Virus record (IMG/VR): IMGVR_UViG_3300030397_000318
Coordinates: 1-59,544 of that record
Source: a virus
Taxonomy: Duplodnaviria > Caudoviricetes
Strand: one strand, 5' to 3'
Length of the DNA: 59,544 nucleotides
The position numbers and the translations under genes are program-made. Positions 223 through 3,442 of the stretch are shown in pieces (position 1 is the first letter of the stretch; each line of letters starts with the position of its first letter). The notes under the pieces are model-generated. The model had not been told where the DNA came from, made no database searches, and worked only from the letters and a program-made list of their open reading frames with translations.

Positions 223-2799
223 CTATCTCCGGCGGCGTTTTCGCTCGTAACCACGAACTACTTTGTGCTGATTTAGCTGCGCGGATTGTGCATGACGCCG
301 CCATATTTGTCCATGCGTCAAATGTTTCGAGCCGTAGGCAAACGCCATAATGATGGAGTCGGCAAGGTCTGGCGACCGGCCAAGACGGGTTTTGATTTCG
401 GACTTGGGTTCGATGCGGATGCCTTGCTTCGTCATCTCATAGCGACTCGCAACCAACTCGGCCAGTAGCTCTCGGTCGGGCGGAAGTGCGATATCGGAAC
501 CGCCGGGTTGATCTGGATCAAGTGCCTCTCGGAACTTCCAATAGGCCTCGGCACGCTTGTTGTAGAACCCCAGAAGTCGATCTGCGGTACGCGCGGCAGA
601 GCTTTCCTGTCCCTTGAAGCCGTGGCACGTAAATTGGTTGGCTCTCAGGTGTTCATAGGTCGCGCCGCCATAACCACCGCCCATGTCGACGATGATCTCG
701 GCTTGGTTCTTCCGGTACTTCATGACCAGAGCCGCCACGTCGGCACCGGAGCGGGTGTCCTTTCCCGGCACCTGGAGTGGGCGCGCGAACCAGTTACCGT
801 ACCGAGGGGCCAAGACGGTGCGATCCTTGCCGCCCTGGGCCACGTCTACGCCAATGGCGCACATCGGGACATCCATGGGCGGGCGCTGATGCCAGCGCTG
901 CTGGGCTTGGAGTACCCAGTTGGTCGGGATTACCTGCCATTCATCGTCGTCATGGGAAATCATCCAGTTCCCATCACGGACGGCAGATCTTAACGGTTCC
1001 GGGAGCGAATCCAGTTTCGCATCATATCCCGTACCCGTGAGAAAAGGGTTATCCGTGAGGCGGGCGGGGATGAATGTTCTCGATAGAGGTTTGACGTATC
1101 GTGGAAGACCGTCTTGGTCATGTCCCATTTGTACGGGTTCCGGACCATCCACCTCCTGATCCTCGCCTTCTTCATCTGACACATACCATCGTAGCTCTCC
1201 AGGTTCGGCAGGGTTGGGGTGGTGGGGGTCTAGCCACGGCTCAAACATCTTCATGAGCCATTGGCCTTCGGAGGGTTTCTCCGGAGGATTAGTTGCTAGA
1301 ATGATTCGGCATCGCTGGCCCGGTTCGGTTGAGCGATTCCATCCGGAAAGGAATCGGAATTGAGATTCGAGGAATTGAGATGCCTCATCTAGACAATTCT
1401 GATTGATAAATCCACCTTGGGTGATATAATGATTCTCCCCATCCACTTCGATATCGTAAAGGTCGACAACACCCAATGACTCGTAAGAGAATTTCGAAGA
1501 AAAGACAGACTCACTCGCTCGACGTTCATCCATCGTATAAGGGTGGGCGTACCATATGTTACGGAAAGTACGTTTGGGAGTTTGTTCCCGGCCATCATCT
1601 TGCGAACCAGTGGGGATGGGCGGCGCAACACAGGCTGATTGGTGAAGATATAGCCGGGCGTCCCTTAGAATCTTACGAGTGCGTCCATCACAGGGATCAC
1701 GACCCCCTGAACAACGATCCATCGAATCTCCAGATAATGACCAAATCGGCCCATCACTCTCTGCATTCTCGGAAATATAACGAGGATAAGTGGCTGGAGA
1801 GAGGGATAACTGCTGAAGCCGTAGAAGAAGCTCTTGAGGGGCGAACGATAAAAGAAGCCGCCGAGTCTCTTGGAATAACCCATATGACCCTGCGGCATCG
1901 ATTCCCCGAACAAGTCGCGCCAAGGAAACGGAAATCTCCGACACGAGCCGACGACCCGGAACTTGTGGCAATCGTGCGAAAATACGCCGAAAGCGATCAG
2001 CACTCGATGAAAATGCTGTGCGATATGACCGGTGTGTCGCCTCGGACACTGGTGAAGTGTGTGGAGATAAACGATATCCACTGGATACCGAAATCGAAGA
2101 AGGGAATGATCCACCGAACGTATCGTGGGAAACCCACCCAGCGGTGGTTAGAAGCGAATGGGTTGCTGACTGAACCTGAGAACCCCACGGAGTAATAATT
2201 CGGACGGCATCGTCGCGCCTGACCGGATAGATGCGCGTGACGCGCCGAGCGCCCTGGAGCGTCTGGACACGCATACCGACCTTCAAATCTTGGATTGCTA
2301 GATAAGAGCCGTCTCCCATAAGGACGGGAGTGTCGCGTCCGACACACAACAAGTCAAAAGGTTGCCCCTTATAGTGCTCCTCATCGCCGGGGTCTTTCGC
2401 CCCCCCGAAAACAATCCTTCTTCCATCTCGTGTACGCAGTGTCGCTGGAGCGCTCCCATTGAATCCATCACGGCTTCCGTATTGCTTCAGCGTATCCTCG
2501 ATGATGCTCCCCATGTCCGAATATTGCCGCCGGATGAGGAGACAGTTCTTGTGCCGCGTGAGCGCAAGCCCCGTGACCAAGGCGGATTTCCCGCCGCCTG
2601 CTTGGCCCCCATACAACAAAATGTCAGCAGGTGAATTATACGCCTGTTCTTGCGGACCCGGATTCGGTATCCAGCAGTCAGGGACCAGTGCGTAAGCCTG
2701 TTCAGCGACTTTCTGGAGTTCTTCATGTGGAAGATCGTCCAGCTTCCTCTGAATCTCGTCGAGCGTTGGCTCTTTGCTCACCAAGGCTTGGGAGGTCAT
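223..2799 (-). CDS. terL: terminase large subunit, intein-containing
   Basis: PNPGPQ Q-motif, Walker A YGGQAGGGKS, Walker B FDLL|CLDEA split by an intein, ATNP coupling motif, RNase-H-like nuclease motifs IGVDVA and SPDLADS; start taken at MTSQ (2799). Confidence 0.95.
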   Translation of the reverse strand: MTSQALVSKEPTLDEIQRKLDDLPHEELQKVAEQAYALVPDCWIPNPGPQEQAYNSPADILLYGGQAGGGKSALVTGLALTRHKNCLLIRRQYSDMGSIIEDTLKQYGSRDGFNGSAPATLRTRDGRRIVFGGAKDPGDEEHYKGQPFDLLCVGRDTPVLMGDGSYLAIQDLKVGMRVQTLQGARRVTRIYPVRRDDAVRIITPWGSQVQSATHSLLTTAGWVSHDTFGGSFPSSISVSSGYRLSPHTSPVSEATHRSYRTAFSSSADRFRRIFARLPQVPGRRLVSEISVSLARLVRGIDAAGSYGLFQETRRLLLSFAPQELLLRLQQLSLSPATYPRYISENAESDGPIWSLSGDSMDRCSGGRDPCDGRTRKILRDARLYLHQSACVAPPIPTGSQDDGREQTPKRTFRNIWYAHPYTMDERRASESVFSSKFSYESLGVVDLYDIEVDGENHYITQGGFINQNCLDEASQFLESQFRFLSGWNRSTEPGQRCRIILATNPPEKPSEGQWLMKMFEPWLDPHHPNPAEPGELRWYVSDEEGEDQEVDGPEPVQMGHDQDGLPRYVKPLSRTFIPARLTDNPFLTGTGYDAKLDSLPEPLRSAVRDGNWMISHDDDEWQVIPTNWVLQAQQRWHQRPPMDVPMCAIGVDVAQGGKDRTVLAPRYGNWFARPLQVPGKDTRSGADVAALVMKYRKNQAEIIVDMGGGYGGATYEHLRANQFTCHGFKGQESSAARTADRLLGFYNKRAEAYWKFREALDPDQPGGSDIALPPDRELLAELVASRYEMTKQGIRIEPKSEIKTRLGRSPDLADSIIMAFAYGSKHLTHGQIWRRHAQSAQLNQHKVVRGYERKRRRR
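1396..2346 (-). mobile_element. intein (317 aa) in terminase Walker B
   Basis: Block A CVGRDTPVLMGDG, block B SATHSLLT, block F/G VVDLYDIEVDGENHYITQGGFINQN followed by +1 Cys; removal restores FDLLCLDEASQF. Confidence 0.92.
1476..2195 (+). CDS. HNH homing endonuclease encoded antisense within the intein
   Basis: HRLIGEDIAGRPLESYECVHHRDHDPLNNDPSNLQIMTKSAHHSLH HNH motif, followed by HTH-like segments (TIKEAAESLGITHMTL). Confidence 0.88.
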   Translation: MTRKRISKKRQTHSLDVHPSYKGGRTICYGKYVWEFVPGHHLANQWGWAAQHRLIGEDIAGRPLESYECVHHRDHDPLNNDPSNLQIMTKSAHHSLHSRKYNEDKWLERGITAEAVEEALEGRTIKEAAESLGITHMTLRHRFPEQVAPRKRKSPTRADDPELVAIVRKYAESDQHSMKMLCDMTGVSPRTLVKCVEINDIHWIPKSKKGMIHRTYRGKPTQRWLEANGLLTEPENPTE

Positions 2800-3442
2800 T
2801 GCGTATCTTGATCTCGTACAAAGTACTTTCGGGTGCCTTACCCTTATCATACTTTGCCGCAATGGCCTTACAAGAGTCCACATCCTGAAGAGTGGGCAGG
2901 CAGTCGCGTCGTGCCTTCTCCAGATCAGGCTTGGAGCATCGACCTTCCTCGTAGGCAGTCTGACACCATGCGTACCGAGCCAGCCGCCGGGAAAATCTCA
3001 TGAAGAGGTAGACCATCCAGCCGTTGAGCGGGTGGTATTCCGGGCCGCGCTGAAGCTCGTGGCCGAAGCCTACAAGAATGACCGGCCTGGAGCTTTCGTG
3101 CCCGTAGAGTTGCCCCATGCGCGCGTACCACTTCCGAGTGATATCGGTATGGTGCTCGATGTAGCTCTCGCGGTTCGGCTCGTAGGGCTTGGGCTTGTAT
3201 TCCTCGTGAGCGATGTTCGGATTGAAAACAGGTGCCTCGGGTCTGTCGGTATCGAGCCACCCCTTGGCCCTGATCCAAGTACCCGGATGTTTCGCATATT
3301 TTCCGGTGCGTAACACATAGGCGTTGTATACCTCGGCTGCCTCTTTATCTCCCGGCCACTCGGTCTTGGTCTTGTACGCCTTCTCGGCGTTGCCCTTACC
3401 GGTCTTCCACTCAACTAGTTCCCAGAACTTGTCGAAGGGCAT
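2723..3442 (-). CDS. protein with phage replication-initiator C-terminal-like domain
   Basis: FDKFWELVEWKTGKGNAEKAY...YAKHPGTWIRAKGWLD resembles the F..FW..YP.K..K..A...HP.TWL...W.D motif of phage replisome organisers. Confidence 0.55.
   Translation of the reverse strand: MPFDKFWELVEWKTGKGNAEKAYKTKTEWPGDKEAAEVYNAYVLRTGKYAKHPGTWIRAKGWLDTDRPEAPVFNPNIAHEEYKPKPYEPNRESYIEHHTDITRKWYARMGQLYGHESSRPVILVGFGHELQRGPEYHPLNGWMVYLFMRFSRRLARYAWCQTAYEEGRCSKPDLEKARRDCLPTLQDVDSCKAIAAKYDKGKAPESTLYEIKIRNDLPSLGEQRANARRDSEEAGRSST

What the first reader, a model, noticed from the sequence alone, without database searches (positions are those of the whole stretch)
1396..2346. Terminase intein whose homing endonuclease is encoded on the opposite strand
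Seen: a 317-aa intein splits the TerL Walker B (FDLL|CLDE). Between blocks B and F the intein frame has no LAGLIDADG or HNH motif and reads like Ser/Arg-rich antisense text. The + strand carries a complete 239-aa HNH-HTH ORF (1476-2195) wholly inside the intein, with its 3' end overlapping block B. The register aligns the first codon positions of both strands, so any NTC-A, NTT-A or NCT-A codon junction in the HNH gene would create a stop in terL; none occurs in ~240 codons, implying selection for dual coding. Established: canonical inteins carry the endonuclease in-frame. Inference: a free-standing HNH gene invaded a mini-intein in reverse, giving a composite homing element. The penultimate residue is also Gln rather than His.
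Basis: partly seen in the sequence, partly recalled or inferred. Interest (0 to 1): 0.87.

Follow-up and report, generated by a model that had tools for sequence, protein, structure and literature searches.

The report
Terminase intein with antisense HNH gene
A phage DNA-packaging gene is interrupted by a self-splicing intein, and the intein's homing nuclease is an intact HNH gene on the opposite strand; both reading frames are kept open by selection, but this is an HNH version of a layout already described for other nucleases.

Summary
terL (223-2883, minus) carries a 317-aa insert (1396-2346) in Walker B. A 239-aa HNH_3 plus HTH gene (1476-2195, plus) lies antisense inside it. The terL frame has 0 stops across the HNH gene where about 8 are expected (0 of 20000 shuffles).

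The layout is a family trait. In 33 of 33 loci with a full-length relative of this HNH, the gene sits antisense inside an open terL frame, always in the same codon register.

The HNH frame is under purifying selection (dN/dS 0.10 and 0.18). The intein-frame peptide opposite it is not (1.46 and 1.54) and is predicted unfolded. The two Hint lobes fold like solved inteins (Z 17.2), and C1, the block-B His, the terminal Asn and the +1 Cys are kept in 28 of 28.

Relatives without the intein, with a mini-intein and with the full element all exist. The window's TerL sits in a clade that otherwise lacks the intein, which points to lateral gain.

Antisense LAGLIDADG and VSR-like nuclease genes inside inteins are already published; I found no paper on an antisense HNH. 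This scan has noted the same layout on other DNA many times. Splicing, expression and cleavage remain untested.

The parts
223..2883 (-). terL (terminase large subunit) precursor ORF, 886 aa by the longest ORF. The database gene call is 852 aa (P0051). The stop codon is at 223-225.
2347..2883 (-). N-extein. It holds the Walker A region (GGQAGGGKS) and ends with FDLL.
1396..2346 (-). Intein, 317 aa, from Cys1 to Asn317. It has class-1-type residues.
2113..2346 (-). Hint N-lobe, intein residues 1-78, pLDDT above 90 for most of it. It includes the block A Cys1 and the block B His63 (codon 2158-2160).
1570..2112 (-). Intein-frame linker, residues 79-259. It is stop-free but mostly below pLDDT 50 and is not conserved as a peptide. 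It is the antisense reading of the body of the HNH gene.
1396..1569 (-). Hint C-lobe, residues 260-317. It holds the invariant HPY 268-270, the block F Asp298 and NHY motif, and the block G ending GFINQN.
226..1395 (-). C-extein. It begins with the +1 Cys (1393-1395) and continues LDEASQF (Walker B).
1476..2195 (+). HNH homing-endonuclease gene, 239 aa, wholly inside the intein on the opposite strand. The stop codon is at 2193-2195.
1536..1781 (+). HNH nuclease domain, residues 21-102. Pfam HNH_3 covers residues 52-94. H71, H72, N80, N84 and H93 are invariant in the family.
1812..2099 (+). Two helix-turn-helix modules, about residues 113-141 and 174-208. They are the presumed DNA-recognition part.
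1403..1430 (+). Sigma-70-like promoter match TTGATA-16-TATAAT with TG before the -10 element, 11 of 12. It lies 46 nt upstream of the HNH ATG, in the antisense of the intein codons N315-I314-F313 and I308-Y307-H306.
   Evidence: a consensus match; function inferred
1476..1569 (.). Dual-coded segment 1. HNH residues 1-31 (including the PSYKGG motif) lie opposite the folded intein residues 260-290 (including HPY).
2113..2192 (.). Dual-coded segment 2. HNH residues 213-239 (YRGKPT and the tail) lie opposite the folded intein residues 52-78 (block B His63 and Trp71).

Best explanation
This is a two-strand selfish element in the Walker B region of a phage terminase gene.

On the terL strand it is a class-1-type intein. 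Two Hint lobes (residues 1-78 and 260-317) are joined by a linker of about 180 residues that has no structure and no conserved sequence. After translation the intein is expected to splice itself out and leave FDLL-CLDEA, which restores the ATPase motif.

On the opposite strand, the DNA of that linker plus the inner edges of both Hint lobes encodes a free-standing I-HmuI-like HNH endonuclease with two HTH modules. It probably has its own promoter inside the antisense of the intein's block F/G codons. The nuclease is expected to cut or nick intein-less terL alleles of co-infecting phages, so that recombinational repair copies the intein and the HNH gene together (homing).

terL is essential, so only HNH sequences that create no stop in the terL frame survive. 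Hence both frames stay open.

Shown here:
- the anatomy;
- stop avoidance in every relative examined;
- purifying selection on the HNH frame only;
- the Hint fold and the conserved splicing residues;
- the series of intein-less, full and mini alleles;
- the window's TerL nested among intein-less relatives.

Inferred: splicing, transcription of the HNH gene, its target site, and present-day homing.
For: Anatomy and chance:
- The window has 0 antisense stops against 8.7 or 7.3 expected, and 0 of 20000 shuffles reached 0.
- In 33 of 33 loci (the window plus 32) the HNH ORF lies inside an open antisense terL-like frame, always in register 0.
- After removing 4 identical copies, 29 of 29 have 0 stops against 3.5-14.7 expected. 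Shuffles reached 0 in 0 of 3000 for 25 loci, 1 of 3000 for 3 loci, and 44 of 3000 for the truncated L097.

Selection:
- Mean pairwise difference at HNH codon positions 1, 2 and 3 is 0.457, 0.404 and 0.653.
- Amino-acid identity is 43% in the HNH frame and 21% in the intein frame over the same columns (26 sequences, 217 columns).
- dN/dS is 0.10 and 0.18 in the HNH frame and 1.46 and 1.54 in the intein frame. These are the only 2 pairs with at least 68% nucleotide identity.

Folds:
- The HNH model has mean pLDDT 91.2. Its best solved match is I-HmuI 1u3e_M, Z 7.7, rmsd 2.5 over 76 residues.
- The intein model has pLDDT above 90 in the two lobes and below 50 over most of residues 79-254. It matches gp41-1 intein 6riz_A, Z 17.2, rmsd 1.7 over 115 residues, and 29 chains score Z of 8 or more; the 29 top-ranked rows are inteins or other Hint domains (BIL, hedgehog, Vint).

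Splicing residues:
- C1, the terminal Asn and the +1 Cys are present in 28 of 28.
- C1, H63, H268-P269-Y270 and N317 are invariant, and D298 is nearly invariant, in 27 sequences.

Allele series among the best 120 TerL relatives:
- 70 have no insert, 44 have inserts of 317-334 aa, 5 have 145-183 aa, and 1 has 438 aa.
- The extein tree needs 6 changes between insert and no insert, against about 38 for shuffled labels. The window's TerL lies in a starred clade of 34 in which the other 33 lack the insert. Each of the 5 mini-inteins is a separate change inside clades of full elements.

Expression signal:
- An 11 of 12 promoter match with an extended -10 lies 46 nt upstream of the ATG.
- The best match falls at the same offset in 21 of 28 loci, and one codon off in 2 more.

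The family is sizeable: 47 hits at about 50% identity and 117 clusters (at 50% identity) with E of 1e-30 or better.
Against: No experiment or RNA data bear on splicing, on HNH expression or on cleavage. Only DNA runs hold this sequence.

The penultimate His usual in block G is absent in all 28.

Pfam Hint hits in the window are below the cut-offs.

The I-HmuI match is only Z 7.7, and Foldseek and PDB sequence searches gave nothing significant.

The promoter evidence is weak. Most of the -35 and -10 letters are forced by the conserved intein residues. The synonymous-site signal is strong against extein codon usage (Tyr codon TAT in 20 of 22 against 7.7 expected). It is only modest against other Tyr codons of the Hint lobes (81 TAT of 119; Fisher p = 0.02, uncorrected for relatedness). 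The His codon shows no bias (10 CAT of 24 against 9.5 expected).

The Shine-Dalgarno match in the window (AAAGG, 13 nt from the ATG) is poor.

Intein presence is strongly clustered on the TerL tree (6 changes), so much of the distribution is vertical.

The nearest known HNH relative is only 53-54% identical, so no recent transfer into this phage can be shown.

One relative (L097) has an in-frame stop in its HNH gene.
Confidence: 0.8

Rival explanations
1. The element is a fossil. The intein still splices, because it must, but the HNH gene is no longer expressed or active and is carried vertically. Its open frame would be a leftover.
For: Intein presence is clustered on the TerL tree: 6 changes against about 38 for shuffled labels. 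No RNA holder was found. L097 carries a nonsense mutation in its HNH gene. The promoter and ribosome-binding evidence is weak.
Against: HNH-frame dN/dS is 0.10 and 0.18, and the codon-position pattern is 3 > 1 > 2 across 26 sequences that are only about 43% identical. The HNH frame is intact in 28 of 29 distinct loci. H71, H72, N80, N84 and H93 are invariant. The model has pLDDT 91.2. An unexpressed antisense ORF would collect stops quickly. The window's TerL is nested among 33 intein-less relatives.
Confidence: 0.1
2. The HNH protein serves the phage and not the element. It could be a packaging-associated HNH that works with terminase, or a weapon against competing phages whose targets lie elsewhere. 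Its place inside the intein would then be incidental.
For: Many phages encode an HNH protein next to their terminase genes (PMC3592412, start of abstract only). The HNH gene here is physically inside terL.
Against: 70 of the 120 closest TerL relatives have no insert and therefore no such HNH gene at this place, so it is not needed for packaging by this terminase family. The protein is of the HNH_3 plus double-HTH type, and its best structural match is the homing endonuclease I-HmuI. In the 33 of 33 loci examined that hold a full-length relative, the gene is tied to the intein.
Confidence: 0.06
3. The insert is not removed by protein splicing. Either it stays in TerL as a tolerated loop, as proposed for the ShiLan insertion in a phage methylase, or it is removed at the RNA level.
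For: The ShiLan element is an in-frame, stop-free insertion that hides an out-of-frame HNH and has no splicing domain (PMC11855218, abstract). Pfam Hint scores in the window are below the cut-offs.
Against: The two lobes fold as a Hint domain with Z 17.2 to a solved intein. C1, the block-B His, the terminal Asn and the +1 Cys are kept in 28 of 28. The insert sits inside the Walker B strand of an ATPase, where 317 extra residues would not be tolerated (inference). Mini versions of 145-157 aa keep exactly the Hint lobes.
Confidence: 0.03

Closest known systems
Non-canonical inteins with an antisense homing-endonuclease gene. These are antisense LAGLIDADG (Synechocystis DnaX and a Chloroflexus SpoVR-like protein; Gorbalenya 1998 and Gogarten 2002, as cited in the preprint) and antisense LAGLIDADG or VSR-like HENs in actinobacteriophage inteins, including TerL (Gosselin, Arsenault and Gogarten, bioRxiv 10.1101/2025.01.02.630785; sections 8 and 15 read).
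   Same: The nuclease ORF lies on the strand opposite the intein, between the splicing blocks. The intein frame stays open. The hosts include terminase large subunits. The proposed origin is invasion of an intein by a free-standing HEN.
   Different: The nuclease here is an HNH_3 plus double-HTH protein. The preprint lists HNH only as an in-frame type. The hosts here are uncultured aquatic and other environmental phages with BPP-1-like TerL, not actinophages. [quoted passage not shown] I could not see the preprint's supplements, which might list further types.
In-frame HNH inteins, for example the dCTP deaminase intein of cyanophage vB_AphaS-CL131 with HintN and HNH_3 domains, shown to self-excise in E. 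coli (PMC6293099, passages).
   Same: The same nuclease family (HNH_3) is associated with a Hint splicing domain in a phage gene.
   Different: There the nuclease is a domain of the intein polypeptide. Here it is a separate protein read from the other strand.
I-HmuI, the HNH homing (nicking) endonuclease of a phage group I intron (PDB 1u3e).
   Same: It is the best structural match of the nuclease domain: Z 7.7, rmsd 2.5 over 76 residues. Both have a modular build of an HNH domain followed by helical DNA-binding modules.
   Different: I-HmuI is intron-encoded. Sequence identity is 17% and the match is of middling strength. That I-HmuI nicks one strand is recalled, not tested here.
Fractured genes: split inteins with a free-standing endonuclease gene between the gene halves (Dassa et al. 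2009, PMC2677866; search listing and start of abstract only).
   Same: A free-standing HEN gene sits at the place of the intein's endonuclease domain.
   Different: There the host gene is broken into two ORFs and the protein is joined by trans-splicing. Here one continuous 886-aa frame is preserved.
The ShiLan element: an out-of-frame HNH hidden in a stop-free insertion of a phage methylase (PMC11855218, abstract).
   Same: An HNH gene overlaps a host frame that is kept stop-free.
   Different: In ShiLan the HNH is on the same strand in a shifted frame and no splicing domain is detectable. A search of that text for antisense or opposite-strand wording found nothing.

Membership tests
Intein (Hint-domain protein-splicing element, class 1 type) | Hint fold | tested here: met
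   The AF2 model has pLDDT above 90 for most of residues 1-78 and 260-317. VIA-align gives gp41-1 intein 6riz_A Z 17.2, rmsd 1.7 over 115 residues; 29 chains score Z of 8 or more, and the 29 top-ranked rows are inteins or other Hint domains (BIL, hedgehog, Vint).
Intein (Hint-domain protein-splicing element, class 1 type) | N-terminal nucleophile (Cys or Ser at position 1) | tested here: met
   Cys1 is present in 28 of 28 and is an invariant column.
Intein (Hint-domain protein-splicing element, class 1 type) | Block B His | tested here: met
   H63 is invariant in 27 sequences, within QVQSxxHxLLT. The assignment of the motif to block B is by recall.
Intein (Hint-domain protein-splicing element, class 1 type) | C-terminal Asn, and Cys, Ser or Thr at +1 | tested here: met
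   Asn317 and the +1 Cys are present in 28 of 28.
Intein (Hint-domain protein-splicing element, class 1 type) | Penultimate His in block G | tested here: not met
   The residue is K in 14, R in 9, Q in 4 and S in 1 of 28. Functional inteins without this His are known (recalled), so this is usual but not strictly defining.
Intein (Hint-domain protein-splicing element, class 1 type) | In-frame insertion at a conserved site, with intein-less alleles in relatives | tested here: met
   70 of the 120 closest TerL relatives lack the insert. P0052 reads HDFLGIDEASQF across the site.
Intein (Hint-domain protein-splicing element, class 1 type) | Protein splicing actually occurs | not testable with these tools
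   This needs expression and a gel or mass spectrometry.
HNH (His-Me finger) homing endonuclease, HNH_3 / I-HmuI-like | HNH_3 profile match above the curated threshold | tested here: met
   37.1 bits against a cut-off of 24.8, residues 52-94. 13 PHROG HNH families also match.
HNH (His-Me finger) homing endonuclease, HNH_3 / I-HmuI-like | Conserved catalytic and metal-binding His and Asn residues | tested here: met
   H71, H72, N80, N84 and H93 are invariant in 32 sequences. Which residue plays which role is by recall.
HNH (His-Me finger) homing endonuclease, HNH_3 / I-HmuI-like | Fold like a solved HNH homing endonuclease | tested here: inconclusive
   I-HmuI is the top hit but only at Z 7.7. 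Foldseek found nothing at E of 0.001 or better. The PDB profile search found no HNH entry.
HNH (His-Me finger) homing endonuclease, HNH_3 / I-HmuI-like | Site-specific cleavage of the element-free allele, and homing | not testable with these tools
   There is indirect support only: the allele series and the window's TerL nested among 33 intein-less relatives.
Non-canonical intein with an antisense HEN (as described for LAGLIDADG and VSR-like HENs) | HEN ORF on the opposite strand inside the intein, with the intein frame uninterrupted | tested here: met
Non-canonical intein with an antisense HEN (as described for LAGLIDADG and VSR-like HENs) | The nuclease belongs to one of the described antisense types (LAGLIDADG or VSR-like/EDxHD) | tested here: not met
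   It is HNH_3. The preprint lists HNH only in-frame. Hence this is a new variant.
Fractured gene / split intein with a free-standing HEN | Host gene split into two separately translated halves | tested here: not met
   The window has one continuous 886-aa frame. Continuous frames were found in all 33 loci.

The most novel reading that the evidence does not exclude
The two genes may be more than tolerated neighbours; they may be built into each other.

(a) Every case I found uses the same antisense register: codon position 1 opposite position 1, and the HNH wobble position opposite the intein's second position. This covers the 33 loci of this family plus 4 more distant HNH genes in TerL of other families (Terminase_6N and Terminase_3), so 37 of 37. 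Yet another register would be easier to keep stop-free. This register lets the nuclease gene set the linker's amino acids through its own silent sites. The resulting peptide is hydrophilic and disorder-prone: ILVFMW make up 22%, against 36% and 31% in the other two registers.

(b) The intein's block F/G codons double as the HNH promoter.

(c) The HNH family motif P-S-Y-K-G-G and the intein's invariant H-P-Y are the two readings of the same bases, and the HNH motif P-T is read opposite the intein's conserved Trp.

If this is a rule and not shared ancestry, it would say which overlaps between a selfish nuclease gene and an essential host frame can evolve.
Probability: 0.3. Interest if true: 0.6.

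Novelty: new variant of a known kind. Interest (0 to 1): 0.5.

Why it matters
Antisense nuclease genes inside inteins were thought to be rare oddities. Here an HNH version forms a large family: 117 clusters at 50% identity for the nuclease, and 44 of the 120 closest TerL relatives carry a full-size insert. It occurs in environmental phages and in at least three TerL families.

The element is a natural example of long antisense dual coding (about 720 nt) with a clear reason for selection on each strand. One frame is selected for its protein sequence. The other is selected only for staying open, and for sequence only at its two ends. That makes it a clean test case for how overlapping genes evolve.

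It supports the 'splicing domain first, nuclease invades later' view of intein origins. The series of empty sites, full elements and five independent mini-inteins also fits the homing cycle.

In practice, gene callers will mis-annotate such loci, as a long TerL 'hypothetical protein' or as an HNH gene with nothing annotated on the opposite strand. The mini-intein core, with a linker of about 180 residues that tolerates any sequence, may also interest intein engineers.

Tried and rejected
I used the search for related loci instead. As a result, the 44 'full' and 5 'mini' TerL proteins were judged from protein length and sequence only. I did not see their DNA or confirm an antisense HNH ORF in them.

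RNA evidence: no RNA holder was listed. Three DNA runs of one study of an aquatic metagenome hold the stretch and may be its source. Laying their contigs showed no variant without the intein or without the HNH gene. There was only one low-depth contig (depth 4.1) of a diverged relative, in which 293 other letters replace 1239-1528.

Structure and sequence searches for the HNH protein:
- Foldseek against PDB gave no match at E of 0.001 or better.
- A profile search of PDB sequences found no HNH entry.
- Only the VIA-align wide search put I-HmuI on top, at Z 7.7.

Promoter selection test: the Tyr-codon bias looked strong against extein usage (p about 8e-8). It shrank to p = 0.02 against other Tyr codons of the Hint lobes. 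I therefore treat the promoter as plausible, not shown.

Register idea: the composition differences between registers were measured on sequences already shaped by selection in register 0. They cannot separate cause from effect.

A first attempt to score insert length from single alignment columns failed, labelling all 120 proteins 'none'. It was redone over a 20-residue span. The +1-residue tally for insert-bearing rows is unreliable, because the aligner put Cys1 in that column. For those rows I rely. For intein-less rows the tally is G 42, A 13, C 7 and other or gap 8, of 70.

Rows left out:
- L109 (a 52-residue partial match) was left out of all counts.
- L100 (nearly identical to L001), L103 (contig end) and L097 (truncated HNH) were left out.
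- L100 and L103 were left out of alignment A2.
- Of the 76 more distant viral loci L005-L080 I looked at 16.

Literature: six searches found no paper describing an antisense HNH gene inside an intein. Gorbalenya 1998 is not held. It and Gogarten 2002 are known to me only through the preprint's citations. Supplements were not available. PMC8966425 and PMC4853749 (passages) were irrelevant.

Considered and rejected: a group I intron (the frame is open, the fold is Hint, and no RNA search was made); a real nuclease folded in the intein's own frame (pLDDT below 50, no family hit); and a chance ORF on either strand.

Full report
**What is there.** The window is a 59,544-bp viral record, classed as linear and estimated 70% complete. 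Its first long gene, 223-2883 on the minus strand (886 aa), is a terminase large subunit (PHROG 979, E 7e-27). Residues 180-496 form a 317-aa insert encoded by 1396-2346. It starts CVGRDTPV, ends GFINQN, follows FDLL and precedes CLDEASQF. An intein-less relative reads HDFLGIDEASQF across this point (P0052). The best phage TerL relatives (Acidovorax AP1, Bordetella BPP-1, Caulobacter phages and others) match in two pieces that skip the insert; none of 433 matching records covers 80% of the query. On the plus strand, 1476-2195 is a 239-aa ORF wholly inside the insert. It matches Pfam HNH_3 (37.1 bits, cut-off 24.8) and HTH_23 (24.7, cut-off 24.6), and 13 PHROG HNH families.

A stop in terL can therefore arise only where an HNH codon NTT, NTC or NCT is followed by a codon starting with A. 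There are none. Shuffling the codon order of the HNH gene gives a mean of 8.7 such stops. Permuting synonymous codons gives 7.3. In both tests 0 of 20000 shuffles reached zero. The other two antisense registers hold 2 and 9 stops.

**Relatives.** The HNH protein has 47 homologues at about 37-56% identity in the large protein collection. A profile search finds 117 clusters (at 50% identity) at E of 1e-30 or better. Scans of viral and metagenome contigs returned 32 loci with a full-length relative; L109, a 52-residue fragment, was left out. In all 33 loci, counting the window, the HNH ORF lies inside an antisense stop-free frame of 483 to 1259 codons that aligns with TerL, and the register is always the same. 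After removing four identical copies, 29 of 29 have zero antisense stops where 3.5-14.7 are expected. Shuffles reached zero in 0 of 3000 for 25 loci, 1 of 3000 for three, and 44 of 3000 for L097. The HNH gene of L097 is cut short by one in-frame stop, although the rest of it is still in frame. L001, L100 and L103 are near-copies of one another, so the number of independent cases is somewhat lower than 29.

**Which frame is selected for what?** I used a codon alignment of 26 HNH genes (217 columns; L097, L103 and L100 left out). Mean pairwise differences at HNH codon positions 1, 2 and 3 are 0.457, 0.404 and 0.653. This is the pattern expected if the HNH frame is the protein under selection. 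HNH position 3 is the intein frame's position 2, so the intein-frame peptide changes freely: 43% against 21% amino-acid identity over the same columns. At the first 20 codons analysed, positions 2 and 3 vary equally (0.48 and 0.48), and near the 3' end the gap narrows. That fits constraint from both strands where the HNH ORF overlaps the folded intein lobes. For the only two pairs close enough for dN/dS (at least 68% nucleotide identity), the HNH frame gives 0.10 and 0.18 and the intein frame gives 1.46 and 1.54.

**Structures.** With a 27-sequence alignment, AlphaFold2 folds intein residues 1-78 and 260-317 with pLDDT mostly above 90. It leaves most of residues 79-254 below 50. The folded part matches solved inteins: gp41-1 6riz_A at Z 17.2, rmsd 1.7 over 115 residues, then MchDnaB-1, Mtu RecA, Npu DnaB and others. 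In all, 29 chains score Z of 8 or more, and the 29 top-ranked rows are inteins or other Hint domains such as BIL, hedgehog and Vint. The HNH protein folds with mean pLDDT 91.2. Its nuclease domain is closest to the homing endonuclease I-HmuI (1u3e_M, Z 7.7, rmsd 2.5 over 76 residues), and its C-terminal half matches HTH DNA-binding domains. Foldseek and PDB sequence searches gave nothing significant.

**Splicing competence (inferred).** Cys1, the terminal Asn and the +1 Cys are present in 28 of 28 inteins with both ends on the contig. C1, H63 (block B), H268-P269-Y270 and N317 are invariant, and D298 (block F) is nearly so. The penultimate residue is never His: K in 14, R in 9, Q in 4, S in 1. 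terL is essential and the insert splits Walker B, so the conserved Hint residues and the stop-free frame are hard to explain unless the intein splices.

**Allele series and mobility.** Among the 120 best TerL relatives (of 3852 with E of 0.001 or better), 70 have no insert at this site. A further 44 have 317-334 aa, five have 145-183 aa and one has 438 aa. The mini versions keep exactly the two Hint lobes, including HPY. On a tree of the extein columns (FastTree, 522 columns), insert against no insert needs 6 changes, compared with about 38 for shuffled labels. Inheritance is therefore largely vertical within clades. Each of the five minis is a separate event inside clades of full elements. 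The window's TerL sits in a well-supported clade of 34 in which the other 33 lack the insert. That placement is what lateral acquisition (homing) predicts. The nearest known HNH is only 53-54% identical, so the donor is unsampled. Seven of the 70 empty alleles already have Cys at the +1 position.

**Expression signals (inferred).** A sigma-70-like match, TTGATA-16-TATAAT with TG before the -10 element (11 of 12), lies at 1403-1430, 46 nt before the ATG. It is the antisense of the intein codons N315-I314-F313 and I308-Y307-H306. The best match falls at the same place in 21 of 28 loci and one codon off in two more. Most of those letters are forced by the conserved intein residues. Of the free silent sites, the Tyr codon is TAT in 20 of 22. 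That is a strong excess over extein usage (7.7 expected) but a modest one over other Tyr codons of the Hint lobes (81 of 119; p = 0.02). The His codon shows no bias. Many relatives have GGAG 9-11 nt before the ATG, while the window has only AAAGG at 13 nt. No RNA run holds the sequence.

**Beyond this family.** Of 16 more distant viral loci that I inspected (out of 76), four (L005, L007, L009, L016) carry HNH genes with a different domain order. These also lie antisense inside TerL genes, of other families (Terminase_6N/6C, Terminase_3), next to intein-splicing matches. They are again in register 0, with 0 stops against 5.6-14.4 expected. One more (L010) lies under a 281-codon antisense frame with no family hit. 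In the other 11, no antisense frame covers the whole HNH ORF.

[quoted passage not shown] Their hosts include TerL. The preprint credits Gorbalenya 1998 and Gogarten 2002 with the first antisense LAGLIDADG cases and proposes invasion of inteins by free-standing nucleases. The layout is therefore a known kind. An antisense HNH is not among the types listed there, and six full-text searches found no other report. I could not see supplements or the 1998 paper. Earlier notes of this scan describe the same layout on other DNA many times: 82 notes in at least 67 genomes, with several follow-ups reaching the same verdict.

**Verdict.** This is a new variant (an HNH nuclease) of a known kind of non-canonical intein. 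It is well supported by comparative evidence and untested at the bench.

Noticed in passing
window 1476-2195; loci L001-L108, L005, L007, L009, L016: All 37 antisense HNH-in-TerL cases use the same register (codon position 1 opposite position 1). This includes four in other TerL families whose HNH has a different domain order. The register in which whole codons face each other would be easier to keep stop-free. It is unexplained whether this reflects ancestry or a rule. In this register the antisense peptide is the most hydrophilic (ILVFMW 22%, against 36% and 31%).
   Followed up: partly
window 1527-1556 (both strands): The HNH motif P-S-Y-K-G-G has forms in free-standing relatives as well, such as PRYKGG and SPLYKGP. 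It is the antisense reading of the intein's invariant H-P-Y, which all five mini-inteins keep even without the HNH gene. Likewise the HNH residues P220-T221 lie opposite the intein's conserved Trp71. Each strand seems to have its own reason to conserve the same bases.
   Followed up: partly
L084 (2733-6434), L107 (2381-6157); proteins P0068, P0081, P0119, P0145, P0130: Some terL relatives of about 1200-1260 aa carry a second insert near the P-loop, in addition to the Walker B intein with the antisense HNH. The second insert has Hom_end_hint and LAGLIDADG_3 hits, so one gene would hold two inteins.
   Followed up: no
L097 3020-3700: The HNH gene of this relative has a single in-frame stop at codon 132, but the downstream part is still in frame and conserved, and the terL frame is open. 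This is either a very recent inactivation or a sequencing error.
   Followed up: partly
TerL proteins, Walker B site: Seven of 70 intein-less TerL alleles have Cys where the intein's +1 Cys would be (HDLLCIDEA); 42 have Gly and 13 have Ala. These may be ready landing sites or footprints of precise intein loss.
   Followed up: no
window 1239-1528, run X1: One low-depth contig (depth 4.1, against about 840 for the main contig) matches both sides of this stretch but has 293 other letters in place of 290. A diverged allele of the intein C-lobe and HNH 5' region therefore seems to coexist in the same sample.
   Followed up: no
window 1476-2195 compared with 226-1125: Third-position GC of the HNH core is lower than that of the terL C-extein across the family (0.53 against 0.645). 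The intein uses the Tyr codon TAT far more than the exteins do (68% against 40%). This fits a foreign origin or the stop-avoidance constraint.
   Followed up: partly
The only call that touched the rest of the window was a search of the whole record with the terL-intein HNH protein, and it found no second copy of this family.
   Followed up: no
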